From positions 11,596,001 to 11,660,000 of the forward strand of contig CM097885.1 of the NCBI GenBank assembly GCA_044892525.1: a DNA stretch of 64,000 nt. Reading direction: 5' to 3'. Positions 12,570 to 64,000 of this stretch are shown piece after piece (positions within the stretch are counted from its first letter, which is position 1; each line of letters opens with the position of its first letter). The notes beneath the pieces were generated by a model, which was not told the origin of the DNA, did not search any database, and saw only the letters and a list, made by a program, of their open reading frames with translations. Source of the stretch: Schmidtea polychroa (taxonomy: Eukaryota). A program made the position numbers and the translations under genes.

Positions 12570-12855
12570 CTTGGATATAACTTCCCATGGCATCCATCTG
12601 ACCGGGATCAGGTGCAGTGATTTCATGACTTCATTTTGTTTATTATTACTGTCCAACAACTGAGGTTTATCAACTTCCCAGTACTGAGATCGGAAACGGT
12701 TTTGAGCAATGGCGAGATCACTTAATTTGATATATAAATGCGGACTAATGACGAGGATATTTCTACAAGCAACATCCCGATGTACCAGACCTATGTACTC
12801 CAGATAACTGAGAGCATCTGACAATTGAACCGCAATATACAGAAACTGAGATTGT
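12570..12855 (-). CDS. DDR: DDR-like RTK, kinase catalytic/activation-loop exon
   Basis: YIAVQLSDALSYLE, VHRDVACRNILV, IKLSDLA, IPVRWMPWE; tttcag acceptor, AAG|gtaaaa donor. Confidence 0.9.
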
Positions 12856-26504: not shown

Positions 26505-28274
26505 GTGGTGAAAATAATAAATAAAGATGCAGACCGTGGATTATTCACATTCTATTGCAATTTATACTTGAAAATGAAGATTACGAAATATTAACGAATA
26601 CATTCTTATAATACAAAGAAAAAAAGAAATAATTCCTAAAATAATAATAAGTTGTCTCCAAACATTAGATAATTTGAAAAAAAATATTATTTGTTTTAAA
26701 TATCAAAAAATAAGAAAAAAATAATAGTTTTCTCTCTTTTATGTTATTTATATTAAATAACAATAAATCAATAAAACTATTGAAAATAGCCAGAAATATT
26801 TGTCACATCCTTTATCAAGTGTTAATCAACCAATTGTTGCTCTGTATTACACATATGAATAGAAATTGATAATAATTTACTTTTTTAGGTTTTTAGTTTT
26901 ATATTTTTTAGTTATCCTAATAATCTTACGTATAACCTGTACTTTATAAATTTCAATAATTTCCATAAAAAATAAAATTCTTCGCGTATAACCCGTCCTT
27001 AAAATAGAGTCAATATAATCTCTACCTATGAATGTACTTTTACACGCTGTCATACAAATACTATATATTAATACATCCATACAATAAACTTGACAACCAA
27101 CGGAAGAAGACCATTTTCCAACTTGTGAAAAACACGTGCCATTGTTTACGAACTTTAATTCAATACAAATATAAATCTTGTTAAATAATAAAATAATAAT
27201 TTATATAATATCTATTAGTTTTGAAAATGTTCTATTCATATTATAAATGTTAGGGATTTAAAATTAACAAAAATGCCACCGAAACATAAGTCACATACCG
27301 CCAAATTCAAAAAGGGCATCAGAAAAATCAAATTTTACAGAAGTTTTATGTTGTAGGGCTGAAGAGACCAAATGTGGGCCAATGGTAATATTCAAACTGA
27401 AACCGGCGCCAAAAGGTTTTGTGAACACAGTATCACTAAAAGAATGGATGAATGAAGAAATTATGGACCAATCGCTTGAAAAGGTTTTGCGTAGAAGAAA
27501 AGATTCATTTTTTAAGACAAAATCTCTTTTAATTTATAATTCTCTTCTCTCGTCTCTCACTCCTGACAATATAGTGATATTCTAGAAGCATTTAATATTG
27601 AGTCTGACGAAGAGTTTAATGGTTTTGAATAAAATTTAATTATATTATGTGATATGTATGAAACCTTTGTAACTTTTAATAAAACTTCTAAGACAAATAT
27701 TAAAATTTTAAAAATATTATATTTAATAAAAGAAATTCATGTATTACCCTCACCTATCGTATAACCCGCGAGTAGTAGGATGTGGGCCATCCAGATCATG
27801 TCCCCTCCAGATCACATATACCCCCTCCCCCCCCCCCACCCCCCCGGGGAAAAAATTTTTTTTTTAAATAAAAGGTCAAGGTCATTTATTTTTTTTTAAT
27901 TAAATTTTTTGTTTTAATTAAGTGATCCAGAGGGGACCTACTTTTTTTCTTCCCAAAAATTAATGTTCCCGCCAACATATTATATTGGACGATACCTCAT
28001 CTTCAAGCTCAGTCCAAGACCTTTCGAATGAGCTATAGGTATCATATATATCTTTAATAGTTTTAATGTTATTAACATTTAATGACCACCATCTTTTCAA
28101 AGTTAAATTATTATTATTTGTCAAAATATTATTAAGTGATCCAGAGGGGACCTACTTTTTGTCATCCCAAAGATTAATGTTCCCGCCAACATATTATATT
28201 GATCGATAGCTTATTTTAAAGCTCTGTGCAAGACCTTTCTAAGGAGATATAGATTTCTATAATATGATGACTCA

Positions 28275-28985
28275 TCACATTTTTAAAACAAAGACAATGA
28301 CTCGTCATATTTTTAGAACGATGCCTAATATTTTTAGAATGATTACGTCATAATTTTAGAACGATGTCTATTATTTTTAGAATGATGCCTAATATTTTTA
28401 GAATGATTACGTCATACTTTTAGAACGATGCCTATTATTTTTAGAATGATGTCTAATATTTTTAGAACGATTACGTCATACTTTTAGAACGATGCCTAAT
28501 ATTTTTAGAATGATTACATCATACTTTTAGAACGATGCCTATTATTTTTAGAACGATGCCTTTTAATTTTAGAATGATGCCTAATATTTTTAGAACTATT
28601 ACGTAATCGATGTCTAATATTTTTAGAATGATGCCTAATATTTTTAGAATGATGCCTAATATTTTTAGAACTATTACGTAATCGATGTCTAATATTTTTA
28701 GAACGAAGCCTAATATTTTTAGAATGATTACGTCATAATTTTAGAACGATGCCAAATATTTTTAGAATGATGCCTAATATTTTTAGAACGATTACGTCAT
28801 ACTTTTAGAACGATGCCTAATATTTTTAGAATGATTACGTAATACTTTTAGAACGATGCCTAATATTTTTAGAACGATGCCTAATATTTTTAGAACGATT
28901 ACGTCATAATTTTAGAACGATGCCTAATATTTTTAGAATGATTACGTCATAATTTTAGAACGATGCCTAATATTTTTAGAACTAA
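28275..28985 (+). repeat. Minisatellite of 21-24-bp units (tttttagaaYgatgcctaata / tttagaatgattacgtcata)
   Basis: About 30 direct units visible. Confidence 0.95.
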
Positions 28986-29120
28986 TAATTTTGTTTTAAT
29001 TATCGATGATTATATAATTTTGTTTAAATCATAGATTATATAATTCTTTTGTTTTAATTATCGAATACGTAATAATATAATTTTGTTTAAATCGTTGATT
29101 ACATATTATTATTTTCTAAG

Positions 29121-29171
<51 letters not shown>

Positions 29172-29306
29172 CTATCCGACAAAATATTCTGTCCCCCTAT
29201 GGGTACTGCACACAAATGTACTACTCACATTCAACAAGTCACAAGGGTACTGCTCACACTCAATATGTCGTAAATTATTATTATTATTATTTCAAATACA
29301 AGTTCA

Positions 29307-29385
<79 letters not shown>

Positions 29386-29763
29386 TATTATTACGCGCAC
29401 GGGGAATATTATTATCATATATACTCTTAATCTATCCGACAAAATATTCTATCCCTTTATTGGTATTTCTCATATGGGTAATGGTCAAAGGTGTACTACT
29501 CACATTCAACATGTCTCAAAGGGTATAATATAATTATTATTAAATTCTGACCAACTTAAATCAATGAAGGGGTAGAACAAAAATATATTAAGTTGCGGTA
29601 TTTTAAATTTAAAAATATTTTAAAAACTTATTTTGACACTAAAGTTTACTTAATTAACAAAGACATAATTATTGCACATGCTTTGCATAAATATTATTAT
29701 TTTTTAAATTTTCAATATTTTCTTTTAAAGTATTAACACGCGCGGGAGTTATTATTATTATTA

Positions 29764-29870
<107 letters not shown>

Positions 29871-30171
29871 GTTAATGAAAAATCTAAAATATGGTTTACA
29901 CACACAACCCCTCAACCATTATTATTATTATTGCAAATATTAGTCAAAAACCTAAAATATTATTTACACTCACACAACCCATTAACAATTATTATTATCA
30001 ATATTAGTGAAAACCTAAAATATTTTCTACACACACACACACACAACCCATTAACCATTATTATTATTGCAAATATTAGTCAAAAACATAAAAACACTCA
30101 TAAACCATTATTATTATCAATATTCGTGAAAACCTCAAATATTTTTTACACGCATATACAACCCATTAAAC

Positions 30172-30216
<45 letters not shown>

Positions 30217-30592
30217 ATTATTATTATTATTAGTGAAAAAACCTTAAATAATTTTTACACACTAAGTTATGGGGTAGAGAATTATTATATGTTTGCAGTA
30301 TTCTGTGTTTACCTTTACATGAAGTTGTCAATAAGGAGCGATAATTTTACACACACATTCTATATACACATACCTTGTTTAACATGGGTGTATATACTCC
30401 TAGTCTATCCGACAAAATATTCTGTCCCCCTATGGGTAATGGTCACAAGGGTACTACTCACACTCAACATGTCGCAAGGGTATATTAATTATGGTTAGTA
30501 AATAAAACTTATCACACACACTATTTTTAATAATATTTAAACGATAAAAATCAAGACAAGAGAGGACAAGGCAAAGTGTATGCATTTAGTAT

Positions 30593-30709
30593 TGCCAGGC
30601 CTAATGAGCAGTGATCAAATATCTGTGCCTGAAAGACACGGTGGATATTTGTTCGCGTCCACAAGGGTCGTCTGTGCCTTCCCCAAGTGGGGTCAGAAGA
30701 ACCTGGGCA
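30593..30709 (+). ncRNA. Twister-ribozyme-like structured RNA (copies at 33744-33860 + and 42103-42219 -)
   Basis: Element order CCAGG..UAA-UGA-GC-[hairpin]-GGGU..GC-CU-[CCCC/GGGG]-UCA-GA-AG..CCUGG; loop L4 is non-canonical. Confidence 0.4.
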
Positions 30710-30839
30710 TTATAGCTTTCCGTATGGAACATTACGCCTAGCATGGGTAGTCAACTACCAGCACATTCGAAACGTATAATTTCAAAATACATGCGTCATT
30801 GGCACTATAACCAAATTAATTAATGTTTTCACTAACACA

Positions 30840-30915
30840 AATATATATTTACAGAGGCCTCTCACTAGTTGGATTACAACCGCCCACCACGACGATCAGC
30901 TTGTAAATATATATT
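30840..30915 (-). ncRNA. SRP Alu-domain-like element, copy A
   Basis: Variant starting GCU (pairs with GGC) and with AGA in helix 4. Confidence 0.6.
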
Positions 30916-32430
30916 AATTAAGGGATAAAGAGGACCCACCCAACCCTATTATATTTAATTTACAAATTTTTCTCGCTCTTCTGTTGGTAATCTATCTCAA
31001 AATTAATCTCTCCATCGGGCCATTTGGAATACATCTTGCGAATTGGACATATTTCTTAGTTTCTGATGTGGTGTCAACTATCATTGCTAAAATTTATATT
31101 GATTTAAAAGCAATTAACTTACATTATCTAACATTTTATCATCACAGGCTTGATAAATTAGGCAACTGTTATTTGTGGTATACTTTTTCAATGTCATTTC
31201 CCACCATAAAACACAGATACCTAAATATAATATATATATTTTAAAGAATTAATTCATGTCTTACATTAATAATAATATTCTTCAGGTAGTACTTTACAAT
31301 ATCTAATTGCTAAAACATCGGTTTTTCCCATTTTTCTTGACAATCGTTGAAAGTTTACATAATTTAAGTCTGATAATTCATGTTGAAGGACACCCACAAT
31401 CAGCTAATTCATTTAAGAAATCCGGAACTATAACTCCTTTAGTGTTTCACCATTTTGTCTGGTTCATTTTTTTCTATAATTCATGTTTTAATAAGAAATT
31501 TCTAAATCCAGAACATAAGTCATTTAGTGTTTCACCATTTTGTCTGGTTCATCTTCTTCATAATCATATAATTCATTTTCTTCATTACTAAGTAAAATAA
31601 TTAAAATATTGTAGTAAATTCTTTATTTACTTACTTTATGGATACTAAAACGAAAGAAATAAAGTTATATCAAAAGTATATTTAAATAAATTAAATTTAA
31701 ATAATTTAATTTAGTTATTTAAAAATATTTAAACAATTTAGTTATTTAAGAATATTTAAACATTAACATTATTATATAGTATAATTTTATATAATATTAT
31801 AATTTTATGTACACTTATATATCCTTCATTTAATTTTTTAAATTCAAAATTTATAATGAAGATTCTTTGAATTAAAAAATATTCTGTTAGTATTTCCAGG
31901 CAGTAAACAACGAATTCAATAATTAAAATCTTAATTTTCATGTTGTTAGGGTTATGGCCAGAATTTAATCGCCATCTAATCGTTTGTTCTCAATTTCGCT
32001 CATTTTTGTTCAAAACATTCAGGTGAGTTGTTATCTGGAAAGTTTCTTTGAGCTCAGTTTTGTTAAAACACTCACGGTATTTTTGAGGGACGTGACACTG
32101 GGAATAAATTAACAATGGGTGGTCTTGCATACATGTTGTTGGTTTGAACTGTTGATTTATTTTAGAAATATGTATATTAAAAACATTTAAGGTATCATTC
32201 AGTAAAATAATATAGTATTTTTGAGTATTTTTAGTTGATTTATAAATAACAGTATTTTGATATATCAATAAAGACCATATACTCCTAGTTTATCCGACAA
32301 AATATTCTGTCCCCCTATGGGTACTGCTCACAAGGGTACTGCTCACAATCAACAACTCGCTAGGGTATTATTAGTATTATTAATAATGACTAAGATATTT
32401 TCAAAGAATTATTATTACAACTCCCAAGAA

Positions 32431-32490
<60 letters not shown>

Positions 32491-32760
32491 CATGTATTTT
32501 TAGAACGATGACTCATTCGATGACTCATACGATGACTCATAAATTATTATTATTTTCAAAAATATTATTAAGTGGTCTGGTGGGCTCCTGGTTTTCGTTT
32601 GCTCAAAACTTAATGTTCCCACCAACAGATTTTATTGATCTATAGCTCATTTTAAGGCCCAGTGCGAGATCTATCTACTGATATATAAATATTATTATCA
32701 TCATTATTATTGGGAATGATATTAACATCCGCGCGAAAGATGTTATTTTCAAAGTTTTAA

Positions 32761-32816
<56 letters not shown>

Positions 32817-33321
32817 GTTAATGAAAAATCTAAAATATGGTTTACACACACAACCCCTCAACCATTATTATTATTATCAATATTAAAAACCTAAAATATT
32901 TTCTACACACACACATGCACAACTCATTAACCATTATTATTATCATTATTAGTGAAAACCTAAAATATTTTTTACACACACACAACCCATTAACCATTAT
33001 TATTATTATTATCAATATTAAAAACCTAAAATATTTTTACACACACACATACAACTCATTAAACTTATTATTATTATTATTATTGCAAATATTAGTCAAA
33101 AACCTAAAATATTATTTACACTCACACAACTCATTAACCATTATTATTATCATTATTAGTGAAAACCTAAAATATTTTCTACACACACACACACAACCCA
33201 TTAACCATTATTATTATTGCAAATATTAGTCAAAAACATAAAAACACTCATAAACCATTATTATTATCAATATTCGTGAAAACCTCAAATATTTTTTACA
33301 CACATATACAACCCATTAACA

Positions 33322-33381
<60 letters not shown>

Positions 33382-33990
33382 ATTATTATTATTATTAGTG
33401 AAAAAACCTTAAATAATTTTTACATACTAAGTTATGGAGTAGAGTATTATTATGTTTGCAGTATTCTGTGTTAGCCTTTACATGAAGTTGTCAATAAGGA
33501 GCGATAATTTTACACACACATTCTATATACACATACCTTGTTTAACATGGGTGTATATACTCCTAGTCTATCCGACAAAATATTCTGTCCCCCTATGGGT
33601 ATTGCTCACAAGGGTACTACTCACATTCAACATATCGCAAGGGTATATTAATTAAGGTTAGTAAATAAAACCTATCACACATACTATTTAAACGATAAAA
33701 ATCAAGACAAGAGAGGACAAGGCAAAGTTTATGCATTTAGTATTGCCAGGCCTAATGAGCAGTGATCAAATATCTGTGCCTGAAAGACACGGTGGATATT
33801 TGTTCGCGTCCACAAGGGTCGTCTGTGCCTCCCCCAAGTGGGGTCAGAAGAACCTGGGCATTATAGCTTTCCGTACGGAACATTACGCCTAGCATGGGTA
33901 GTCAACTACCAGCACATTCGAAACGTATAATTTCAAAATACATGCGTCATTGGCACTATAACCAAATTAATTAATGTTTTCACTAACACA

Positions 33991-34066
33991 AATATATATT
34001 TACAGAGGCCTCCCACTAGTTGGATTACAACCGCCCACCACGACGATCAGTTTGTAAATATATATT
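33991..34066 (-). ncRNA. SRP Alu-domain-like element, copy B
   Basis: Reverse complement of 41897-41972. Confidence 0.65.
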
Positions 34067-37000
34067 AATTAAGGGATAAAGAGGACCCACCCAACCCTAT
34101 TATATTTAATTTACAAATTTTTCTCGCTCTTCTGCTGGTATTCTATCTCAAAATTATCATCTCCATCGGGCCATTTGGAATACATCTTGCGAATTGGACA
34201 TATTTCTTAGTTTCTGATGTGGTGTCAACTATCATTGCTAAAATTTATATTGATTTAAAAGCAATTAACTTACATTATCTAACATTTTATCATCACAGGC
34301 TTGATAAATTAGGCAACTGTTATTTGTGGTATACTTTTTCAATGTCATTTCCCACCATAAAACACAGATACCTAAATATAATATATATATTTTAAAGAAT
34401 TAATTCATGTCTTACATTAATAATAATATTCTTCAGGTAGTACTTTACAATATCTAATTGCTAAAACATCGGTTTTTCCCATTTTTCTTGACAATCGTTG
34501 AAAGTTTACATAATTTAAGTCTGATAATTCATGTTGAAGGACACCCACAATCAGCTAATTCATTTAAGAAATCCGGAACTATAACTCCTTTAGTGTTTCA
34601 CCATTTTGTCTGGTTCATTTTTTTCTATAATTCATGTTTTAATAAGAAATTTCTAAATCCAGAACATAAGTCATTTAGTGTTTCACCATTTTGTCTGGTT
34701 CATCTTCTTCATAATCATATAATTCATTTTCTTCATTACTAAGTAAAATAATTAAAATATTGTAGTAAATTCTTTATTTACTTACTTTATGGATACTAAA
34801 ACGAAAGAAATAAAGTTATATCAAAAGTATATTTAAATAAATTAAATTTAAATAATTTAATTTAGTTATTTAAAAATATTTAAACAATTTAGTTATTTAA
34901 GAATATTTAAACATTAACATTATTATATAGTATAATTTTATATAATATTATAATTTTATGTACACTTATATATCCTTCATTTAATTTTTTAAATTCAAAA
35001 TTTATAATGAAGATTCTTTGAATTAAAAAATATTCTGTTAGTATTTCCAGGCAGTAAACAACGAATTCAATAATTAAAATCTTAATTTTCATGTTGTTAG
35101 GGTTATGGCCAGAATTTAATCGCCATCTAATCGTTTGTTCTCAATTTCGCTCATTTTTGTTCAAAACATTCAGGTGAGTTGTTATCTGGAAAGTTTCTTT
35201 GAGCTCAGTTTTGTTAAAACACTCACGGTATTTTTGAGGGACGTGACACTGGGAATAAATTAACAATGGGTGGTCTTGCATACATGTTGTTGGTTTGAAC
35301 TGTTGATTTATTTTAGAAATATGTATATTAAAAACATTTAAGGTATCATTCAGTAAAATAATATAGTATTTTTGAGTATTTTTAGTTGATTTATAAATAA
35401 CAGTATTTTGATATATCAATAAAGACCATATACTCCTAGTTTATCCGACAAAATATTCTGTCCCCCTATGGGTATTGCTAGCAAGGGTACTGGTCACACT
35501 CAACAAGTCGCAAGGGTATATTAATCATTTAGAAATTCTTAGGTAAGATAATCAGAAATTTGTGAATATTTTAAATGTAACTTTACACTTATGTCGAGCG
35601 ACTAATTTATTGGTTAACTTTTTAGACATTTAAAGCAAAAGGTAATTTATTCATCTAATGTTCGTTACAATAGTTAATAATATGAGAAAAACATGGTCAT
35701 TATTCATTGATAATTTTAAATTCTTTATCATTTAGAGTAAATTTGTTTGAGGCAAAAATAATTAAAGGAGTCATAATAGAAATATGGTTATCATTTATCC
35801 AATTAAGGGGCTTATTAGTTAGAAATATATATTATAAAGTAACAATTATTTTCTAATTTAATTAGATGATCATTAGACGTAATATATCTTTGCGAGAAAT
35901 TTAAAATGTTTGAGTAACCAAAACATGGATATTTTGTGCGATAAATTTATGAATATTGGTTAATTTTGTTATTTTTAGTCATTTAAAATAATATTTAGCA
36001 AAGGTAATTTAGCAAAATATCATTTATCCACCCGATAACAATATTCCTTCAAAAGATTAACTGATATTCAACCTATTTAATTTCTAATTAAAATCATAAA
36101 TTTCCTTCAATAAAGTTAAATTTTCTATAGTTGTCGATTTCCAACTTTTAAGTCAATATTTCTCAAGTTTTGTCACCGATATCCCCACAATGAATATCCG
36201 TCTATAACATGTTAAATAAAGGTAAATAATTTAAAGCAATAACCCTTGATATCATTCTCAATTAATTCTAAAGATTTCAGATATTTCATTGTCAAAACCA
36301 AGTAAATAAACACCTAATTGATCATTAACCCTAAACGACTTAATAAAACCGTGGATAATTAATAGATAAAAACTTGTTCTAAAACATAAATCTAAATTAC
36401 TGTGGAATAACATTCATCACGACCTAATAAACCTCTAAAACGATATAAGTTCACTGGAATTATTATTAATTCATAGCTAAATACTGACTATTTCCTTTGA
36501 AAATTTGATATTTTACCAATAAGAACATTGTCGATTTAAATAGAGATTTCAAAACATGTCCACCTTAACCGATCCCTCACCAAATATTTCTAGCATTTTA
36601 AAAACCCCCTTAAAAATCATATATTACCATCTTAACCGAACCTTCACTAAATCCAACCGACTTTAATATATCAATTCTCTTAAAATCCATGGGAAATCCT
36701 TCAAAATATGAATTTTATTTAATTGTTAAAAACATTCTTCCATTGAAATAATTTAGTAGCTAAATTCAAAGAGTCCACTAAAAGATCAAAATAAATATTT
36801 AACCACATGTATCATCAAATACCTAACTAGAGATGATAATATCTCATTGATTGATCATAATTCTTCATCGATTCAACTAATTATAGCCATTACAACATGA
36901 TATATCTTTCAAACTAAATTTCAGTATATTTTACAATAATTTTCAAGTAGATTTCAAATATATCATCATCATGAAAAAATTAGCTGGTTTCAACTTTAGA

Positions 37001-37408
37001 TTTTCAATATTTTAAAGTTCATCAATGTGTAAATATTCTTAGAAAAATATATGAAAAATTATTTAGTCAAATTATCATTACAAAGTCATCATCAAAATTA
37101 ATTTTTATTTAAAATTTAAAAACAAGTCAATAAAATATAGCAAATTATCAAGAAATTAATTAAATTTATCTTAGAATTAACACTAAACCTTAAATATTCT
37201 TTCAATTAACATGAAATTCACAAAAAATGTTAGTAAAATCCCGCTAAATCTAAAAAATTACCAATGAATTTAATGCTAAATAATAACCAAAAATTTGCCT
37301 AAATAAAATCATTAAAACACAACAGTACCTTTACGACCAGTACCTTTACGAGCAGTACCAATTGTGAACAGTACCCATAGAGGGAGAAAATATCTTGTCG
37401 GATAAACT

Positions 37409-37672
37409 CAGAGTATATATAATAAAACGAATTAACAATAACTCCATCAAATTGAATCAGTCAAATTAACACAAATTTTAATAAAAAATCTTATTCTAAA
37501 ATGGTAAGCAGCATAATATCGAAAGATAATTTTGATAACACAGAGTATATATAATAAAACGAATTAACAATAACTCCATCAAATTGAATCAGTCAAATTA
37601 ACACAAATTTTAATAAAAAATCTTATTCTAAAATGGTAAGCAGCATAATATCGAAAGATAATTTTGATAACA
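37409..37672 (+). repeat. 132-bp tandem duplication present only in the left arm
   Basis: cagagtatatataataaaacg...ttttgataaca repeated at 37409 and 37541; single copy in the right arm. Confidence 0.92.
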
Positions 37673-38384
37673 CAGAGATAAAATTAACAATATTATTCTC
37701 AGGTGGTAAGAATCATCATTATTCTATGATTAATTAATAATGAAATTCAAAAAAGTGAAAATAAGTGTTTAAATTATTCATTAATGGTATGTAAATGTAA
37801 ATATAGCGAGAAGTGGCGTAGATAAGATGGAAATTTATTAATTGCATTTATTTAAAATTATTTCATGAAATTCATAAAATTTATAAAAATGATCACTTTA
37901 ATAAAAAATATTTAATAAAATTTTCAAAGAAATATTTGTTGGGAGGATTATTGGAAAATCGGGGGCTATAAGTGATGAAGATATATAAAATTATTTCTAA
38001 TATATGAGTTACTAACGAATTAAAATATTTTAATAATGGGATAAAAATTTATTTTTATAAAGTATTTAATCCACAAATGACAAACATACATAACAAATGT
38101 TATTTGACTGAGCAATTATGATAAATTCATATTTTAAATTTGATTAACTACTTTAATATTGAAATAATAATTATTATATTTACTATTTATCACTAAATAT
38201 TTCAAAAGCAAATATTCTAATAGATAATTTAAGATACATTACTCTTTTCACTCAAAATGATCTCTCAAAGTTAAGAAGGAAACAAAGTGTGTCAGAACAC
38301 ATATCCAGCATTCACTTTACATAAATATATGAAAACACCAAGTAATCAATGATAATAGAGGGATAACAGACTCAAACATAAAAT

Positions 38385-41300
38385 ATTCTTACCACCTGAG
38401 AATAATATTGTTAATTTTATCTCTGTGTTATCAAAATTATCTTTCGATTTTATGCTGCTTACCATTTTAGAATAAGATTTTTTATTAAAATTTGTGTTAA
38501 TTTGACTGATTCAATTTGATGGAGTTATTGTTAATTCGTTTTATTATATATACTCTGAGTTTATCCGACAAGATATTTTCTCCTTCTATGGGTACTGTTC
38601 ACAATTGGTACTGCTCGTAAGGGTACTGGTCGTAAAGGTACTGGTGTGTTTTAATGATTTTATTTAGGCAAATTTTTGGTTATTATTTAGCATTAAATTC
38701 ATTGGTAATTTTTTAGATTTAGCGGGATTTTACTAACATTTTTTGTGAATTTCATGTTAATTGAAAGAATATTTAAGGTTTAGTGTTAATTCTAAGATAA
38801 ATTTAATTAATTTCTTGATAATTTGCTATATTTTATTGACTTGTTTTTAAATTTTAAATAAAAATTAATTTTGATGATGACTTTGTAATGATAATTTGAC
38901 TAAATAATTTTTCATATATTTTTCTAAGAATATTTACACATTGATGAACTTTAAAATATTGAAAATCTAAAGTTGAAACCAGCTAATTTTTTCATGATGA
39001 TGATATATTTGAAATCTACTTGAAAATTATTGTAAAATATACTGAAATTTAGTTTGAAAGATATATCATGTTGTAATGGCTATAATTAGTTGAATCGATG
39101 AAGAATTATGATCAATCAATGAGATATTATCATCTCTAGTTAGGTATTTGATGATACATGTGGTTAAATATTTATTTTGATCTTTTAGTGGACTCTTTGA
39201 ATTTAGCTACTAAATTATTTCAATGGAAGAATGTTTTTAACAATTAAATAAAATTCATATTTTGAAGGATTTCCCATGGATTTTAAGAGAATTGATATAT
39301 TAAAGTCGGTTGGATTTAGTGAAGGTTCGGTTAAGATGGTAATATATGATTTTTAAGGGGGTTTTTAAAATGCTAGAAATATTTGGTGAGGGATCGGTTA
39401 AGATGGACATGTTTTGAAATCTCTATTTAAATCGACAATGTTCTTATTGGTAAAATATCAAATTTTCAAAGGAAATAGTCAGTATTTAGCTATGAATTAA
39501 TAATAATTCCAGTGAACTTATATCGTTTTAGAGGTTTATTAGGTTGTGATGAATGTCATTGCACAGTAATTTAGATTTATGTTTTAGAACCAGTTTTTTA
39601 TTAATTATCCACTGTTTTATTAAGTCTTTTAGGGTTAATGATCAATTAGGTGTTTATTTACTTGGTTTTGACAATGAAATATCTGAAATCTTTAGAATTA
39701 ATTGAGAATGATATCAAGGGTTATTGCTTTAAATTATTTACCTTTATTTAACATGTTATAGACGGATATTCATTGTGGGGATATCGGTGACAAAACTTGA
39801 GAAATATTGACTTAAAAGTTGGAAATCGACAACTATAGAAAATTTAACTTTATTGAAGGAAATTTATGATTTTAATTAGAAATTAAATAGGTTGAATATC
39901 AGTTAATCTTTTGAAGGAATATTGTTATCGGGTGGATAAATGATATTTTGCTAAATTACCTTTGCTAAATATTATTTTAAATGACTAAAAATAACAAAAT
40001 TAACCAATATTCATAAATTTATCGCACAAAATATCCATGTTTTGGTTACTCAAACATTTTAAATTTCTCGCAAAGATATATTACGTCTAATGATCATCTA
40101 ATTAAATTAGAAAATAATTGTTACTTTATAATATATATTTCTAACTAATAAGCCCCTTAATTGGATAAATGATAACCATATTTCTATTATGACTCCTTTA
40201 ATTATTTTTGCCTCAAACAAATTTACTCTAAATGATAAAGAATTTAAAATTATCAATGAATAATGACCATGTTTTTCTCATATTATTAACTATTGTAACG
40301 AACATTAGATGAATAAATTACCTTTTGCTTTAAATGTCTAAAAAGTTAACCAATAAATTAGTCGCTCGACATAAGTGTAAAGTTACATTTAAAATATTCA
40401 CAAATTTCTGATTATCTTACCTAAGAATTTCTAAATGATTAATATACCCTTGCGACTTGTTGAGTGTGACCAGTACCCTTGCTAGCAATACCCATAGGGG
40501 GACAGAATATTTTGTCGGATAAACTAGGAGTATATGGTCTTTATTGATATATCAAAATACTGTTATTTATAAATCAACTAAAAATACTCAAAAATACTAT
40601 ATTATTTTACTGAATGATACCTTAAATGTTTTTAATATACATATTTCTAAAATAAATCAACAGTTCAAACCAACAACATGTATGCAAGACCACCCATTGT
40701 TAATTTATTCCCAGTGTCACGTCCCTCAAAAATACCGTGAGTGTTTTAACAAAACTGAGCTCAAAGAAACTTTCCAGATAACAACTCACCTGAATGTTTT
40801 GAACAAAAATGAGCGAAATTGAGAACAAACGATTAGATGGCGATTAAATTCTGGCCATAACCCTAACAACATGAAAATTAAGATTTTAATTATTGAATTC
40901 GTTGTTTACTGCCTGGAAATACTAACAGAATATTTTTTAATTCAAAGAATCTTCATTATAAATTTTGAATTTAAAAAATTAAATGAAGGATATATAAGTG
41001 TACATAAAATTATAATATTATATAAAATTATACTATATAATAATGTTAATGTTTAAATATTCTTAAATAACTAAATTGTTTAAATATTTTTAAATAACTA
41101 AATTAAATTATTTAAATTTAATTTATTTAAATATACTTTTGATATAACTTTATTTCTTTCGTTTTAGTATCCATAAAGTAAGTAAATAAAGAATTTACTA
41201 CAATATTTTAATTATTTTACTTAGTAATGAAGAAAATGAATTATATGATTATGAAGAAGATGAACCAGACAAAATGGTGAAACACTAAATGACTTATGTT

Positions 41301-42581
41301 CTGGATTTAGAAATTTCTTATTAAAACATGAATTATAGAAAAAAATGAACCAGACAAAATGGTGAAACACTAAAGGAGTTATAGTTCCGGATTTCTTAAA
41401 TGAATTAGCTGATTGTGGGTGTCCTTCAACATGAATTATCAGACTTAAATTATGTAAACTTTCAACGATTGTCAAGAAAAATGGGAAAAACCGATGTTTT
41501 AGCAATTAGATATTGTAAAGTACTACCTGAAGAATATTATTATTAATGTAAGACATGAATTAATTCTTTAAAATATATATATTATATTTAGGTATCTGTG
41601 TTTTATGGTGGGAAATGACATTGAAAAAGTATACCACAAATAACAGTTGCCTAATTTATCAAGCCTGTGATGATAAAATGTTAGATAATGTAAGTTAATT
41701 GCTTTTAAATCAATATAAATTTTAGCAATGATAGTTGACACCACATCAGAAACTAAGAAATATGTCCAATTCGCAAGATGTATTCCAAATGGCCCGATGG
41801 AGATGATAATTTTGAGATAGAATACCAGCAGAAGAGCGAGAAAAATTTGTAAATTAAATATAATAGGGTTGGGTGGGTCCTCTTTATCCCTTAATTAATA
41901 TATATTTACAAACTGATCGTCGTGGTGGGCGGTTGTAATCCAACTAGTGGGAGGCCTCTGTAAATATATATTTGTGTTAGTGAAAACATTAATTAATTTG
42001 GTTATAGTGCCAATGACGCATGTATTTTGAAATTATACGTTTCGAATGTGCTGGTAGTTGACTACCCATGCTAGGCGTAATGTTCCGTACGGAAAGCTAT
42101 AATGCCCAGGTTCTTCTGACCCCACTTGGGGGAGGCACAGACGACCCTTGTGGACGCGAACAAATATCCACCGTGTCTTTCAGGCACAGATATTTGATCA
42201 CTGCTCATTAGGCCTGGCAATACTAAATGCATAAACTTTGCCTTGTCCTCTCTTGTCTTGATTTTTATCGTTTAAATAGTATGTGTGATAGGTTTTATTT
42301 ACTAACCTTAATTAATATACCCTTGCGATATGTTGAATGTGAGTAGTACCCTTGTGAGCAATACCCATAGGGGGACAGAATATTTTGTCGGATAGACTAG
42401 GAGTATATACACCCATGTTAAACAAGGTATGTGTATATAGAATGTGTGTGTAAAATTATCGCTCCTTATTGACAACTTCATGTAAAGGCTAACACAGAAT
42501 ACTGCAAACATAATAATACTCTACTCCATAACTTAGTATGTAAAAATTATTTAAGGTTTTTTCACTAATAATAATAATAAT

Positions 42582-42632
<51 letters not shown>

Positions 42633-43137
42633 TGTTAATGGGTTGTATATGTGTGTAAAAAATATTTGAGGTTTTCACGAATATTGATAATAATAATGGT
42701 TTATGAGTGTTTTTATGTTTTTGACTAATATTTGCAATAATAATAATGGTTAATGGGTTGTGTGTGTGTGTGTAGAAAATATTTTAGGTTTTCACTAATA
42801 ATGATAATAATAATGGTTAATGAGTTGTGTGAGTGTAAATAATATTTTAGGTTTTTGACTAATATTTGCAATAATAATAATAATAATAAGTTTAATGAGT
42901 TGTATGTGTGTGTGTAAAAATATTTTAGGTTTTTAATATTGATAATAATAATAATAATGGTTAATGGGTTGTGTGTGTGTAAAAAATATTTTAGGTTTTC
43001 ACTAATAATGATAATAATAATGGTTAATGAGTTGTGCATGTGTGTGTGTAGAAAATATTTTAGGTTTTTAATATTGATAATAATAATAATGGTTGAGGGG
43101 TTGTGTGTGTAAACCATATTTTAGATTTTTCATTAAC

Positions 43138-43200
<63 letters not shown>

Positions 43201-43719
43201 TCCCGCGCGTGTTAATACTTTAAAAGAAAATATTGAAAATTTAAAAAATAATAATATTTATGCAAAGCATGTGCAATAATTATGTCTTTGTTAATTAAGT
43301 AAACTTTAGTGTCAAAATAAGTTTTTAAAATATTTTTAAATTTAAAATACCGCAACTTAATATATTTTTGTTCTACCCCTTCATTGATTTAAGTTGGTCA
43401 GAATTTAATAATAATTATATTATACCCTTTGAGACATGTTGAATGTGAGTAGTACACCTTTGACCATTACCCACATGAGCAATACCCATAAAGGGATAGA
43501 ATATCTTGTCGGATAAACTCTGACTATATATGATAATAATAACTCCCGTGCGTGTTAAAATAAATAATAATACTTTGAACTTGTATTTGAAAATAATTTA
43601 CGACATGTTGAATGTGAGTAGTACCCTTGTGACAATTACCCATGTGAGTAGTGCCCTTGTGAGCAATACCCTTAGGGAGACAGAATATCTTGTCGGATAG
43701 ATTAAGAGTATATATATTG

Positions 43720-43794
<75 letters not shown>

Positions 43795-43800
43795 CTTAGA
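38385..43800 (-). repeat. Right arm of the giant inverted repeat
   Basis: Matches 32816-37713 and then 29100-29880 in reverse complement; 671-bp unique spacer at 37714-38384. Confidence 0.95.
41897..41972 (+). ncRNA. SRP (7SL) RNA 5' Alu-domain-like element closed by a 14-bp stem
   Basis: ACU GAUCGUC GUGGU GGGCGGUU GUAA UCC AACUAGUG GGA GGC aligns element by element with the 7SL Alu 5' domain, including the UGUNR turn and loop-loop complementarity. Confidence 0.65.
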
Positions 43801-44089
43801 AACTAAAAACTTAGAAAATAATAATTATTTTAATAAATGACCTTGAAAAGTAAATGACCTTGAAAATTAAATGACCTTGAAAAATTAAATGACCTTGAAA
43901 ATTAAATGACCTTGAAAATTAAATGACCTTGAAAATAAAAAGATTACTTAATTAAAACAAAAAAATTAAATTAAAAAAAAAAATGACCTTGACCTTGATG
44001 AGTCATATGACCTTGGGAATGACCTTGATGAGTCATCGTTCTAAAAATATTAGACATCGTTGGGTGAGTCATTGGGTGAGTCATTCTCT

Positions 44090-45225
44090 TTGTTAATATT
44101 AATGATGATGATACCTTCTATGGCTCATTCGAAAGGTCTTGGACTGAGCTTTAAGATGAGGTATCGTCCAATAAATTCGGATAATGGGAACATTAATTTT
44201 TGGGATGAAAAAGAGTAGGGGCCCGCCAGACCACTTAATAATTATATGACCTTGAAAATGATTTTTGGTAAAATGTTAATAACTTTGTCAATAATAATGA
44301 TGATGATACCTTCATTAGCTCATTCGAAAGGTCTTGCATTGGGCTTTAAAATGAGGTATCGTCCAATAAAATCCGTTGGTGGGAACATTAATTTTTGGGA
44401 TGAGAAAAAGTATGTCACCGCCCGGCCAATTAATAATATTTTGAATAATAATAATAATTTAACGTTGAAAAGATGGTGGTCATCAATTGTTAATAACTTT
44501 GTCAATAATAATGATGATGATACCTTCTATGAATCAATCGAAAGGTCTTGCATTGGGCTTTAAAATGAGCTATCGTTGAATAATGTTCGTTGGCGGGAAC
44601 TCTGTACATTTAAATTTTAAAATATGACCTTGAAAAAATAAATGACCTTGAAAAAATAAATGACCTTGAAAAAATAAATGACCTTGAAAAAATAAATGAC
44701 CTTGAAAAAAAATAAATGACCTTGAAAAAATAAATGACCTTGAAAAAATAAATGACCTTGAAAAAAAAATAAATGACCTTGACCTTGACCTTGACCTTGA
44801 CAATAATATTTTGAAAAATAAATGACCTTGAAAAATGGTCTCGGTAAAACTTTAATAACTTTGCCGATGTTAATGATGATGATACCTTCTATGGCTCAAT
44901 TGAAAGGTCTTAGACTACGCTTCAAAATAAGCTATCTATTAATAAATTCGGATAATGGGAACATTAATTTTTGGGATGAGAAAAAGTATGTCCCCGCCCG
45001 GCCAATTAATAATATTTTGAATAATAATAATAATTTAACGTTGAAAAGATGGTGGTCATCAATTGTTAATAACTTTGTCAATATTAATGATGATGATACC
45101 TTCTATGGATCAATCGAAAGGTCTTGGACTGAGCTTTAAGATGAGGTATCGTCCAATAAAATCCGTTGGTGGGAACATTAATTTTTGGGATGAAAAAAAG
45201 TGTGTCCCCTCCAGGCCAATTAATT
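44090..45225 (-). repeat. About five diverged ~210-bp subterminal repeat units; two inverted copies at 27920-28260 and one at 32560-32690
   Basis: Recurring gaaaggtcttg...gctttaa.atgaggtatcgtccaataaa...gggaacattaatttttgggatga. Confidence 0.85.
44620..44835 (+). repeat. aaataaatgaccttgaaaa minisatellite (also at 43835-44030)
   Basis: Direct 17-21-bp units plus (gacctt)n. Confidence 0.92.
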
Positions 45226-45487
45226 AAAACAAAAAATTAAAAAAAAAAAATTTTTTTTTTCCGGGGGGGGGGGAGGGGGTATATGTGGTCTGGAGGGGAC
45301 CTGATCTGGGGAGCTCACATCATACTACTCCCGCGGGTCATACGCAAGAAATTAGGGTAATTATTTTTTATAACTTTACGATATTGTAATAATTAAAATT
45401 AAAATTATTTTTATTTTATTCTATAATATTTTAAACAATTATTACTTACTTAACATTTACTGGAATATCTTGTTTCAGTTTTCTTAC

Positions 45488-62860: not shown

Positions 62861-63397
62861 CGCTTGAAAATAGAATTTCTCTGACCATAATCCATCGAGA
62901 CTGAAAATAGATATTAATTGACACGAAATGGCCTGTACGTTTCTTAAGATCTATCACTATCCATCTTGTGTCGAAATTCTCCCTGTCTTCCTTTATCGCA
63001 TGATTGATAGATTTTCCTCTATCAAATCTAAGCCCGTCAGAACTAAATGCAATCTCTACTCTTTTTGGGAGTGCTACTGATGCAGTCCGATAATTAGCAG
63101 CTCTTATACTGACATTTACAAATTTTCTATAATTAATAAATCGAAACAAAATCTGAATATTGTCAAATTTGAAATCGGAACGACTCCAGCCAACAAAGGG
63201 GCACGAAGACATGTTAAACGGATTATTGTCATTTTTCTCGTAGTCATGGTCGGTCAGTTTTCCTAGACCTGATTTCAGCATTCCCGTATGAAGGAGGACA
63301 CCGTCATATGATTGATCTGTAAAATATGGTTCTTTCATATTTTTTCCTTGGTCATAGTATAAACTTCCATCAACCATTTGATATTCTATGATGTTAT
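62861..63397 (-). CDS. DDR: DDR-like receptor tyrosine kinase, discoidin-like (DS-like) extracellular domain exon; more 5' exons lie beyond the window
   Basis: ORF 62847..63425 has DDR DS-like motifs (DQSYDG, SGLGKLTD, FVGWSR, ILFRFINYRKF, RWIMVREILFSS). AG acceptor at 63398-99, GT donor at 62859-60, 537 bp, phase 1/1. Confidence 0.85.
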
Positions 63398-64000
63398 CTA
63401 CAATAAATTTCATTAAAATCATCATCAGTAATAATTTTACATATAAATATGCTGTTATTCATTTTGAACATATTTTAAATGGAATCAAAAGAAATTGAAA
63501 GAAAAGTAATTAAAAAAACGGACGTGGTATGTCTTTTAAAATTTTAAACAAAATATGCCATTAATTAAGACATTCAATTAGAAAATATGTTAACTATGTG
63601 GTTAATAGAAATTTATTAAACATTTTTGACAGGCAAAAATAATAAATATAATTAAAATATCGTTTTCAAGGGCTTTACATTGTTTAAATGATTTTTAGTG
63701 TTTAAATAGCTAAAAGTTCATAATTTGAATTAATTTATTATTAATTATTTTCATTAACGAGTTCTTTTATTACTAATAAATAATTTTCAAATTTTCGTTC
63801 AAAAATAGGTTTATTTATTTTATACTTTTATATCTTACTGACAAATAATGAGTAAAATATTAAGTTAAATTTCATTTAATGATCTGCTATCATTTTTGGA
63901 TTTAGAATTTAGTATTTTATATATTAAATAAATTTATACAATATAAATTTTTTATTGAGGTTATTTTTATTTGGGAATATATCTCTTCAAACTTTACGTT

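What the first reader, a model, noticed from the sequence alone, without database searches (positions are those of the whole stretch)
41897..41972. Maverick-borne SRP Alu-domain mimic with circularly permuted closure (3 copies)
Seen: (G/A)CU-GAUCGUC-GUGGU-GGGCGGUU-GUAA-UCC-AACUAGUG-GGA-GGC, bracketed by a perfect 14-bp inverted repeat AATATATATTTACA/TGTAAATATATATT; other copies at 30840-30915 and 33991-34066 (minus). Known: the 7SL 5' Alu domain has helices 2-4, a UGUNR turn and kissing loops, and binds SRP9/14; all of these map here (UGGU with ACUA for the kiss). No S domain follows, and the helix-5 partner comes from upstream rather than from the 3' end, so the domain can fold inside a longer transcript, about 40 nt after the stop of a decayed spliced cargo gene. 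Inference: a selfish element captured or mimics the Alu domain to recruit SRP9/14 or ribosomes, as a 3'-UTR element or a VA-RNA-like small RNA.
Basis: partly seen in the sequence, partly recalled or inferred. Interest (0 to 1): 0.88.

Follow-up and report, generated by a model that had tools for sequence, protein, structure and literature searches.

The report
7SL Alu-domain fragment in Maverick-derived repeat
A 45-base copy of the first folding domain of the animal's signal-recognition-particle RNA is built into about two thousand copies of a gene-less, hairpin-shaped relative of Maverick virus-like transposons; it looks like a captured passenger, with no evidence so far that it works.

Summary
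At 41897-41972 a 14-bp perfect inverted repeat brackets 45 nt homologous to nt 1-45 of metazoan 7SL RNA (Rfam RF00017, 24.2 bits, E 3e-4, far below the 70-bit cut-off; no S domain). The copies at 30840-30915 and 33991-34066 are real.

The module occurs about 2,025 times in this 781-Mb metazoan genome, always inside one repeat family. The window's element (27771-45329) is a 17.6-kb foldback with no recognisable gene. It has Maverick-type ends, 5'-(AGT)2...(ACT)2-3', and a 6-bp target duplication. A 17-kb element with the same terminal motif encodes integrase and a packaging ATPase but lacks the module.

No "cargo gene" was found. Within the family the module is no better conserved than its immediate flanks, and the variants seen are single changes, several of which break pairs.

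One result remains unexplained. Against the host's own 7SL genes the module differs at 10 of 44 positions. Six of these form three compensatory helix-3 pairs and none breaks a pair (P about 1e-3). So it is not a decayed copy of the present host gene.

Best reading: a passenger fragment taken from another functional 7SL. SRP9/14 recruitment or a Pol III small RNA remains possible but untested.

The parts
41912..41956 (+). 7SL-like module: homologue of nt 1-45 of metazoan SRP RNA (helices 2, 3 and 4, loops L2 and L1.2, UGUAAU turn). The window copy starts with A; the family majority starts with G.
   Evidence: Rfam RF00017 24.2 bits, E 3e-4. 34 of 44 identical to the host 7SL, with 13 of 13 pairs kept and 3 pairs changed on both sides. 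The MFE fold reproduces helices 3 and 4.
41897..41910 (+). Upstream arm of the 14-bp perfect inverted repeat that brackets the module.
   Evidence: Forms the closing stem in the MFE fold. Present in the family strings, where one sub-group carries TTTAGA in this arm, which breaks the stem.
41959..41972 (+). Downstream arm of the 14-bp inverted repeat.
33991..34066 (-). Mirror copy of the 76-nt unit in the left arm (76/76 identical).
   Evidence: It lies in the 3,039-nt, 100% complementary arm pair I1.
30840..30915 (-). Third copy (74/76), created by the 3.15-kb tandem duplication in the left arm. It has G at module position 1 and A at position 39, which breaks the C30-G39 pair.
27771..45329 (.). 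The carrier: a 17,559-bp gene-less foldback element with Maverick-type ends (5'-AGTAGT...ACTACT-3'), arms of about 9-10 kb, and an unpaired centre at 37714-38384.
   Evidence: Inverted repeats I1-I15. The boundaries are shared with other genomic copies. Arm and centre ORFs have no Pfam match below E 0.01. End motif and 6-bp duplication compared with PMC8097293.
27765..27770 (+). Left copy of the 6-bp target-site duplication CCCGCG.
45330..45335 (+). Right copy of the 6-bp target-site duplication CCCGCG.
41825..42054 (+). Low-diversity block of the family core that contains the module (pi 0.006-0.016 against 0.06 for the surrounding 1.4 kb). It ends just after the first T4 run (42025-42028) downstream of the module.
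   Evidence: 35 copies; 20 module sites and the 29-nt upstream marker were fixed by how the copies were chosen. T run read.
44040..45324 (.). Subterminal tandem-repeat array of the right arm. Its left-arm counterpart is 27890-29070 (21-22-bp and about 200-bp periods).
   Evidence: D1, D2, D6, I9-I15.

Best explanation
The 76-nt unit is a genuine copy of the 5' Alu domain (nt 1-45) of a metazoan 7SL/SRP RNA, closed by a 14-bp A+T-rich inverted repeat. It is a fixed internal part of the conserved core of one very abundant repeat family. That family has about 1,000 foldback elements, usually 13.5-17 kb, and therefore about 2,000 module copies. The elements have Maverick/Polinton-type ends and 6-bp target duplications but no genes. 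They are most likely non-autonomous elements moved in trans by the gene-bearing Mavericks that share their terminal motif (inferred).

The module was probably picked up once, before the family expanded, and has since been co-amplified as a passenger. Its source was not the present host 7SL gene array but another functional 7SL, either a diverged paralogue or the 7SL of an earlier host of this virus-like element (inferred). That would explain why it differs from the host gene only by structure-preserving changes.

Shown: homology, copy number, restriction to the family, Maverick-type ends, absence of genes, lack of special conservation, and compensatory differences from the host 7SL. Inferred: single capture, passenger status, trans-mobilisation and a foreign or paralogous source.
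For: Homology and fold.

Copy number and restriction to the family:
- Module 44-mer at up to 3 mismatches: 2,025 matches.
- Upstream flank 29-mer: 1,947 matches.
- Marker 230 nt downstream: 2,035 matches.
- Anchored pattern spanning the module: 1,621 matches.
- All 30 fetched loci and all 100 listed strings carry the module.
- No empty site with 0-30 nt between the arms.
- No copy continues as a 7SL gene after GGCC.

Foldback architecture at other loci: minus/plus pairs about 7.5 kb apart; terminus pairs 13.4-17.6 kb apart.

Maverick-type ends:
- 8 of 8 termini end in ...TACTACT.
- Target duplications are CCCGCG in the window and AACATA in the C3 element.
- Compared with passages of PMC8097293.
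- An element with the same terminal motif at C1:10007854-10024969 encodes rve+chromo integrase and a Pox_A32 ATPase.
- polB genes are abundant: 8,822 candidates, 91 scored.

No genes in the carrier.

Passenger-like behaviour:
- Pairwise mismatch of the module (1-3%) is like that of neighbouring 40-nt windows, some of which are at 0-1% (8 of 10 aligned copies used).
- Against the older sub-families many 48-nt windows are 98-100% identical while the module is 92-98%.
- 12% of 46-nt windows are at least as invariant, even though my extraction forced 20 module sites to be constant.
- Variants among the 100 strings are all single changes. They include pair-breaking ones (G17A in 3 strings, A5T, G42T, G39A) and a sub-group with a broken closing stem plus a loop G14A change (8 strings).

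Source was not the present host gene: 10 differences, made up of 3 compensatory pairs, 1 wobble-preserving change and 3 loop changes, with 0 pair-breaking. Simulation gives P(3 or more compensated pairs) of 5-9e-4 and P(all pairs kept) of 0.0025-0.015.
Against: - The homology covers exactly one folding domain: it starts at 7SL nt 1 and ends right after the 3' strand of helix 2. The inverted repeat sits within 1-2 nt of both ends. Such a tidy unit is what a selected RNA module would look like.
- The structure-preserving divergence from the host 7SL could also reflect selection on the fold inside the element's master lineage.
- The module lies in a 230-nt block with about four-fold lower diversity than the surrounding 1.4 kb. 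This could mark a functional unit, although better alignability of G+C-richer sequence can explain it too.
- No donor 7SL was found. Only the top 25 and top 40 7SL-like hits of the genome could be scored, and all were array copies. No other animal genome could be searched.
- Trans-mobilisation by autonomous Mavericks is inferred from shared ends only.
Confidence: 0.6

Rival explanations
1. One reading: the module is a working Alu-domain mimic. In a transcript that runs through the arm, the 14-bp repeat closes the domain in place of helix 5. The folded RNA then binds SRP9/14 (or the ribosome), as Alu, B1 and BC200 RNAs do, to the element's benefit.
For: All 13 pairs of helices 2-4 and the UGUAAU turn are kept despite 10 differences from the host 7SL, including 3 compensatory pairs. 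The MFE fold gives the closing stem plus helices 3 and 4 (-20.2 kcal/mol). The domain boundaries are exact. The module is fixed in every sub-family seen. It sits in a low-diversity block. From recall: the 50-nt 5' domain of human SRP RNA alone binds SRP9/14.
Against: - The carrier has no gene whose translation or localisation could profit, and the gene-bearing element with the same ends lacks the module.
- The fold's z-score is modest: -1.94, with 10 of 200 shuffles folding as well.
- The module is not more conserved than its immediate flanks.
- One sub-group lost both the closing stem and loop nucleotide G14.
- Position 36 is G, which loses one of the two tertiary pairs that I recall for the human Alu domain.
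- There are no compensatory changes among copies.
Confidence: 0.12
2. The module is the head of a Pol III unit. The 7SL-derived 5' domain supplies internal promoter elements, an A+T-rich TATA-like stretch lies at -25 to -3, and transcription from G1 (41912) ends at the first T4 run (42025-42028). This would give an RNA of about 117 nt, comparable to scAlu/B1 or to an adenoviral VA RNA. In this case the upstream repeat arm is not in the RNA.
For: Homology starts exactly at 7SL nt 1. The first run of 4 T's lies 114-117 nt downstream. The low-diversity block 41825-42054 spans roughly -87 to +143. Contigs of two runs guessed to be RNA run through the unit, but this is only a weak hint.
Against: - TATA-like strings and T runs are everywhere in a 24% G+C sequence.
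- The contigs that cover the unit continue well beyond it on both sides (41716-42278), and their RNA nature is a guess.
- The folded 116-nt RNA does not keep the Alu fold as its MFE.
- No promoter test was possible.
Confidence: 0.12
3. The unit acts at the DNA level. The 14-bp palindromic arms with a G+C-rich structured spacer form a hairpin or cruciform in single-stranded replication intermediates of a protein-primed, virus-like element, and the 7SL origin of the spacer is irrelevant.
For: The minus strand also folds into the stem, with z -3.23. The carrier is itself a giant palindrome. The unit is fixed in the family.
Against: The arms are only 14 bp of A+T. One sub-group carries a mismatch in the stem. 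Nothing ties the site to replication or integration, and no such site was looked for in the gene-bearing relative.
Confidence: 0.05
4. Chance resemblance: an unrelated G+C-richer island that happens to look like the Alu domain.
For: The Rfam score of 24.2 bits is far below the family's 70-bit gathering score. The whole-window scan at gathering threshold found nothing.
Against: E 3e-4 and 0.0034 in the two scans. It is collinear and ungapped with the host 7SL from nt 1 to nt 45, with 34 of 44 identities including a 13-nt exact run across the U-turn and helix 4. All 13 pairs are kept, against 40-60% paired when the partners are slid. blastn E 1e-6.
Confidence: 0.02

Closest known systems
7SL-derived small RNAs and SINEs (primate Alu, rodent B1, BC200, scAlu)
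   Same: Derived from the 5' Alu domain of SRP RNA, amplified to high copy number, and retaining helices 3 and 4 and the UGUAAU turn that SRP9/14 recognises (the binding part is recalled, not tested here).
   Different: Those are Pol III-transcribed retroposons with their own target duplications and A-rich tails. They are dispersed as independent units and also keep 3' 7SL sequence. Here only nt 1-45 are present. The unit never occurs on its own. It is spread by a DNA element, and it is closed by a foreign 14-bp inverted repeat. From recall, 7SL-derived SINEs are known only from primates, rodents and tree shrews. A preprint (10.64898/2025.12.11.693146, passages read) reports automated 'SINE/7SL' annotations in some planarians.
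Maverick / Polinton virus-like transposons
   Same: The 5'-(AGT)2//(ACT)2-3' end motif, 6-bp target duplication, long terminal inverted repeats and a size of 13.5-17.6 kb (PMC8097293, passages read). A gene-bearing element in the same genome shares the terminal motif.
   Different: No polB, integrase, ATPase, protease or capsid gene in the window's element. The inverted repeats take up almost the whole element, making it a foldback. The module is absent from the gene-bearing relative examined.
Foldback (FB-type) elements and copy-back defective viral genomes
   Same: A nearly complete palindrome with a short unpaired centre and subterminal tandem-repeat arrays. Parasitic on an autonomous partner (inferred).
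   Different: The ends and target duplication are Maverick-type, not those of Drosophila FB. A copy-back origin during protein-primed replication is my inference and was not tested.
Host small-RNA fragments captured into mobile DNA (for example U6/7SL chimeric retrocopies made by template switching)
   Same: The fragment starts exactly at the RNA's 5' end, which suggests an RNA or cDNA intermediate (recalled mechanism).
   Different: No LINE part, poly-A tail or target duplication around the unit could be shown. The fragment ends at a domain boundary and differs from the host RNA by compensatory changes.

Membership tests
Metazoan SRP RNA gene (Rfam RF00017) | Score at or above the gathering threshold (70 bits) over a full-length RNA of about 300 nt | tested here: not met
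   24.2 bits. Nothing in the window at gathering threshold. True host genes score 235-241 bits.
Metazoan SRP RNA gene (Rfam RF00017) | S domain (helices 6 and 8) and helix 5 | tested here: not met
   236 model positions are skipped in the alignment. blastn of the host 7SL against 41500-43000 finds only nt 8-46. 0 copies continue like a 7SL gene.
Metazoan SRP RNA gene (Rfam RF00017) | 5' Alu domain: helices 2, 3 and 4 with the UGUAAU turn | tested here: met
   13 of 13 pairs in the majority form, with the turn identical to the host's. The window's A1 form loses one helix-2 pair.
7SL-derived SINE (Alu/B1 type) | Independent dispersed retroposed units with their own target duplications and an A-rich tail | tested here: not met
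   Module count of 2,025 equals the counts of family markers 230 nt away (2,035) and just upstream (1,947). All 130 inspected copies have the same flanks.
7SL-derived SINE (Alu/B1 type) | Pol III transcription from an internal promoter | not testable with these tools
   No run on record as RNA. Contigs cannot show starts or strand.
Maverick / Polinton | End motif 5'-(AGT)2//(ACT)2-3' or (AG)3//(CT)3 | tested here: met
   8 of 8 termini examined end in ...TACTACT. 793 exact terminal-pattern matches genome-wide. Motif as given in PMC8097293.
Maverick / Polinton | 6-bp target-site duplication | tested here: met
   CCCGCG in the window. AACATA in the C3 element. A third element lies in an (ATT)n microsatellite and is uninformative.
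Maverick / Polinton | Protein-primed polB, rve integrase, packaging ATPase, protease and capsid genes | tested here: not met
   None of the 9 arm ORFs scanned matched a Pfam family. None of the 70 ORFs of 35 aa or more in 37500-45400 reached E 0.01; the one entry at the E 0.1 ceiling was DUF983 at E 0.082. Hence non-autonomous. A relative sharing the terminal motif has integrase and ATPase.
SRP9/14-binding Alu RNA (functional class) | Loop L2 - loop L1.2 tertiary pairs (human G13-C37 and G14-C34, recalled) | tested here: inconclusive
G13, G14 and C33 are kept. The equivalent of C37 (host C36) is G in the module.
SRP9/14-binding Alu RNA (functional class) | Binding to SRP9/14 | not testable with these tools
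   Needs a binding assay.

The most novel reading that the evidence does not exclude
A virus-like DNA element has independently arrived at the Alu/B1 strategy. The master copies of this Maverick-derived foldback family would maintain, under selection for structure, a working 45-nt SRP Alu domain. It would be expressed either as a Pol III RNA of about 117 nt or as a stem-closed module in a longer transcript, and it would engage SRP9/14 or the ribosome. The three compensatory differences from the host 7SL would then record that selection. A weaker variant of this case: the module is a leftover from a former host and so marks horizontal transfer of the Maverick lineage.
Probability: 0.15. Interest if true: 0.85.

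Novelty: new variant of a known kind. Interest (0 to 1): 0.45.

Why it matters
From recall, 7SL-derived repeats are known as retroposed SINEs in one mammalian clade. Here the same RNA domain has been spread to about 2,000 copies by a DNA-based, virus-like element in a different animal. The copy is trimmed exactly to one folding unit and differs from the host's own 7SL only by structure-preserving changes.

If the module works, this would be a second, independent use of the SRP Alu domain by a genomic parasite, and a possible small-RNA function for Maverick-type elements. If it is a passenger, its compensatory signature could still serve as a marker for the element's former host or for a lost 7SL paralogue.

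The family is also a clear example of a gene-less, foldback derivative of Mavericks that has outgrown its autonomous partners.

Tried and rejected
- Rfam at gathering threshold on the whole window: 0 matches. tRNA/tmRNA scan: 0.
- The sigma-70 promoter and intrinsic-terminator scan of 41500-42400 found no more than its shuffles. It is not suited to a eukaryote in any case.
- My first genome-wide DNA search gave only 7 matches. This was misleading: the tool skips very common words, and the window's A1 form is a rare variant. Pattern searches corrected the count.
- 'The module is better conserved than its flanks' was rejected. The low flank identities counted gaps. Substitution-only profiles showed no excess conservation.
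- Coding gene next to the module: no Pfam family for the arm ORFs. The short frame ending at 41852 has no support as an exon.
- A rest-of-7SL further downstream: only an 18-nt weak match at 42098-42115 (E 0.48). No Rfam hit.
- Variant 7SL genes as source: only array copies were scored (25 of 3,808 and 40 of 284 candidates), so diverged paralogues cannot be excluded.
- Donor search outside the genome: a 23-mer of the module gave 0 matches in viral contigs and 0 in metagenome contigs. A gapped helix-3/U-turn pattern gave 1 match, in G+C-rich bacterial-looking coding DNA with no Rfam hit. That is chance.
- Empty-site search (arms 0-30 nt apart): 0 matches.
- RNA evidence: no RNA holder listed. 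Only contigs could be laid. Two contigs of 603 and 559 nt from runs guessed to be RNA cover 41716-42278 and 41716-42239. One such run has no cover over 40801-41202, where a DNA-like run has cover. This is not usable as evidence of expression, strand or ends.
- SRP14 (PF02290) and SRP9 (PF05486) six-frame searches of the genome: no match, and the control genomes were silent too. These are small multi-exon proteins, so this says nothing about their presence.
- Earlier notes of this scan: none for this genome.
- Literature: two full-text searches found no description of a 7SL module in a DNA transposon or Maverick: '7SL / Alu domain / DNA transposon / captured' (67 papers held at least 3 of the 4 terms; one listed and checked by title and abstract start) and '7SL / SINE / flatworm' (4 papers). 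Supplements of the bioRxiv preprint were not seen.
Only a 3-kb sample was obtained.
Full report
**1. What is in the sequence**

At 41897-41972 (+) two perfect 14-bp arms (AATATATATTTACA and TGTAAATATATATT) bracket a G+C-richer 48-nt core. A 76/76 identical mirror copy lies at 33991-34066 (-), and a 74/76 copy lies at 30840-30915 (-).

**2. Homology to 7SL**

Scanning 41600-42300 against all of Rfam at a permissive threshold gave one meaningful match. This was Metazoa_SRP (RF00017) at 41912-41978, 24.2 bits, E 3e-4. Model positions 1-44 were aligned at high posterior probability and 236 internal model positions were skipped. The same hit was the only one below E 0.1 when the whole right arm and centre (37500-45400) were scanned (E 0.0034). 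At Rfam's gathering threshold (70 bits) the window has no match at all. This is therefore a fragment, not an SRP RNA gene.

**3. Comparison with the host's own 7SL**

The genome that holds the window is a 781-Mb eukaryotic assembly. The window is C1:11596001-11660000. The genome has true 7SL genes scoring 235-241 bits, in a tandem array of 593-bp period on contig C2 and on C178 (sequences read).

The module aligns to nt 1-45 of these genes without a gap. The majority form of the module differs from the host at 10 of 44 positions:
- Six differences form three double changes in helix 3: G5-C22 to A-U, A6-U21 to U-G, and A10-U17 to C-G.
- One difference turns C3-G42 into U-G.
- Three lie in loops (positions 12, 36, 38).
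- None breaks a pair, so 13 of 13 pairs are kept.

With the partners slid by 1-3 columns only 40-60% of cells pair, against 96% for the real structure. In a simulation of 10 random substitutions on the host sequence, three or more compensated pairs arose with P = 5-9e-4 and all pairs survived with P = 0.0025-0.015, depending on the transition bias.

The UGUAAU turn is identical. Position 36, which by my recollection of the human Alu-domain structure would make one of two loop-loop pairs, is G instead of C. The 76-nt RNA folds (MFE -20.2 kcal/mol) into the closing stem plus helices 3 and 4. The z-score against shuffles is only -1.94.

No S domain or helix 5 follows:
- blastn of the host 7SL against 41500-43000 finds only nt 8-46, plus an 18-nt weak match.
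- No genomic copy of the module continues other than with T after GGCC (0 matches).

**4. Copy number**

My first DNA search suggested 7 genomic copies. That was an artefact of the tool's skipping of very common words, combined with the window carrying a rare A-first variant. Pattern searches gave the following:
- Upstream 29-mer at up to 3 mismatches: 952+995 = 1,947 matches.
- Anchored pattern spanning the unit: 794+827 = 1,621.
- 44-nt module at up to 3 mismatches: 996+1,029 = 2,025.
- A 36-mer 230 nt downstream: 1,007+1,028 = 2,035.

All 30 loci fetched around the upstream marker and all 100 listed strings of the anchored pattern hold the module. No site with the two arms 0-30 nt apart exists. 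The module is thus a fixed, integral part of one repeat family and does not occur on its own.

**5. The carrier**

In the window the three copies lie in a large palindrome. The arm pairs include 33331-36369 against 39594-42632, which are 100% complementary over 3,039 nt. There is an unpaired centre at 37714-38384, subterminal tandem-repeat arrays, and a 3.15-kb tandem duplication in the left arm that accounts for the third copy.

Other loci have the same foldback build. Genome-wide, markers come as minus/plus pairs about 7.5 kb apart, and terminus pairs lie 13.4-17.6 kb apart.

Comparing eight termini shows that homology stops at ...CACATC(C/A)TACTACT. The window's element is therefore 27771-45329. 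It starts 5'-AGTAGT, ends ACTACT-3', and is flanked by CCCGCG on both sides (27765-27770 and 45330-45335). The element on contig C3 is flanked by AACATA on both sides. A third element sits in an (ATT)n microsatellite and is uninformative.

The paper on vertebrate Mavericks (PMC8097293; passages read) gives exactly this end motif, 5'-(AGT)2//(ACT)2-3', and perfect 6-bp target duplications as the marks of Mavericks.

The genome is rich in Maverick-type polB genes: 8,822 first-look candidates, of which 91 were scored, with open frames up to about 1,480 aa. A 17.1-kb element with the same terminal motif (C1:10007854-10024969) was sampled over 3 kb (L074). The sample has no DNA similarity to the window. 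It encodes an rve+chromo integrase, a Pox_A32-type ATPase and a TBP-like protein.

By contrast, the window's element shows no recognisable gene. None of the 9 arm ORFs scanned matched a Pfam family. None of the 70 ORFs of 35 aa or more in 37500-45400 reached E 0.01. The Pfam hits in the window belong instead to a Ty3/Gypsy element at 6095-11115 and to exons of a discoidin-domain receptor kinase gene.

The carrier is therefore best described as a gene-less, non-autonomous, foldback derivative with Maverick-type ends. It is wrong about genes and about a nearby 'cargo gene'.

The gene-bearing element at 10.01 Mb has no module. No match at up to 3 mismatches lies between C1:9.52 and 10.40 Mb in the position-ordered list. 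None of the 6 polB places on C1 below 31.2 Mb has a module within 15 kb. The nearest is 16 kb away and lies inside a separate foldback element.

**6. Is the module under constraint in the family?**

- With 8 copies from five loci (2 of 10 aligned rows were dropped because they are near-identical arm partners), the whole core 40880-42450 shows 0-5% pairwise mismatch. The module (1-3%) is no better than neighbours such as 41157-41256 (0-1%) or 42097-42196 (0-0.6%).
- Against an older sub-family (L072, L049, L050) and L032, differences are mostly indel blocks. Many 48-nt windows are 98-100% identical while the module windows are 92-98%.
- With 35 copies (34 of 35 loci passed my exact-match extraction, plus the window) over ±700 nt, mean diversity is 0.060 and the module's is 0.014. 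However, 20 of its 46 sites were held constant by my extraction, and 12% of all 46-nt windows are at least as invariant.
- The module sits in a low-diversity block of about 230 nt, 41825-42054 (pi 0.006-0.016), and it is not the most conserved part of that block. The block could be a functional unit. It could equally reflect the better alignability of more complex sequence between indel-prone A+T-rich stretches.
- Among the 100 listed strings all variants are single changes. Pair-breaking changes: G17A in 3 strings, A5T, G42T and G39A in 1 each, and A1 in 3. Wobble-preserving changes: C30T in 6 strings and C2T in 2. One sub-group of 8 strings has both a mismatch in the closing stem (TTTAGA) and G14A in loop L2. 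There is no compensated double change.

Individual copies thus decay as neutral DNA, and the family gives no covariation evidence.

**7. Expression**

No sequencing run on record as RNA holds the stretch, and only assembled contigs could be laid. These cannot show level, strand or ends. Details are under Tried and rejected.

**8. Interpretation**

The following points are solid:
- This is a true 7SL 5'-domain homologue.
- It is trimmed to exactly one folding unit and bracketed by a 14-bp inverted repeat.
- It is fixed in about 2,000 copies of a Maverick-ended, gene-less foldback family.
- It is not a decayed copy of the present host 7SL genes.

The simplest account is a single capture before the family expanded, from a functional 7SL other than today's array. 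The source could be a diverged paralogue, which I could not exclude because only the best 25 and 40 7SL-like hits were scored. It could also be the 7SL of a former host of this virus-like lineage. From recall, Mavericks have been reported to cross species boundaries in nematodes. After capture the module would have been amplified passively. I put this at 0.6.

The alternative is that the structure-preserving divergence reflects selection inside the element. That would mean either an SRP9/14-binding module closed by the repeat (0.12) or the head of a Pol III RNA of about 117 nt running to the T4 run at 42025-42028 (0.12). My data do not exclude these. The exact domain boundaries and the low-diversity block speak for them. 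The lack of any gene to benefit, the module's absence from the gene-bearing relative, the broken variants that still spread, and the loss of one recalled tertiary pair speak against them. A DNA-level hairpin role (0.05) and chance (0.02) are minor.

**9. Novelty and score**

Captured fragments of host small RNAs in mobile elements, and 7SL-derived repeats, are known kinds. A 7SL Alu-domain module spread by a Maverick-type DNA element was not found in the two full-text searches I ran. A planarian preprint mentions automated 'SINE/7SL' and 'DNA/Maverick' annotations without linking them.

I rate it a new variant of a known kind, with interest 0.45. The anatomy is clean and the compensatory signature is a real puzzle, but the exciting functional claim has no support yet.

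Noticed in passing
window 6095-11115 (-): Apparently intact Ty3/Gypsy LTR retrotransposon. The 295-bp LTRs are 100% identical (6095-6389 and 10821-11115). It has a gag with zinc knuckles (9782-10858), protease-RT-RNase H (7251-9845) and integrase (6385-7266). A 98% identical piece of the same family sits in the centre of the C3 foldback (L033 7203-8878).
   Followed up: partly
window 12525-12908 (-) and 62847-63458 (-): Exons of a discoidin-domain receptor tyrosine kinase-like host gene (kinase domain and DS-like domain). The foldback element and the Gypsy element appear to lie in its large intron(s).
   Followed up: no
L074:8-484 (-) = G000:C1:10010807-10011283: A gene-bearing Maverick-type element encodes a TATA-binding-protein-like ORF (PF00352, E 2.5e-15) next to its A32-like ATPase and rve+chromo integrase. 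This is an unusual cargo for a Maverick and possibly relevant to how such elements are transcribed.
   Followed up: partly
G000 polB places, e.g. C1:235384712(-)/235393695(+), C3:32534493(-)/32544220(+), C1:126058387(-)/126068737(+): Several Maverick polB genes occur as head-to-head inverted pairs 1.6-10 kb apart with identical scores. This suggests that palindromic dimers are common for gene-bearing Mavericks in this genome too, not only for the gene-less family.
   Followed up: no
G000:C2:31932512-31980502 and C178:30892-31188: The host 7SL genes form a long head-to-tail array with a 593-bp period. 39 of the 40 S-domain matches scored lie in it, out of 284 first-look candidates.
   Followed up: partly
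window 30019-33980: Tandem duplication of about 3,150-3,163 bp inside the left arm only (95-99% identity between units). It makes the window's element asymmetric and longer (17.6 kb) than the usual 13.5-14.6 kb.
   Followed up: partly
G000:C1:812913, 834555, 976685, 1066118, 1130735, 1207191, 1275268 (all minus strand): An older sub-group of the core (TTTAGA arm plus G14A), seen at eight places among the 100 listed, occurs as solitary same-strand copies spaced 20-150 kb apart. It shares only about 3.2 kb with the foldback (L072). This looks like part of a larger segmental repeat rather than foldback elements.
   Followed up: partly
window 27765-27770 / 45330-45345 and flanks: The insertion site of the window's element is itself a near-palindrome (CGTATAACCCGCG ... 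CCCGCGGGTCATACG), so the flanks of the element are inverted repeats of each other beyond the 6-bp duplication.
   Followed up: no
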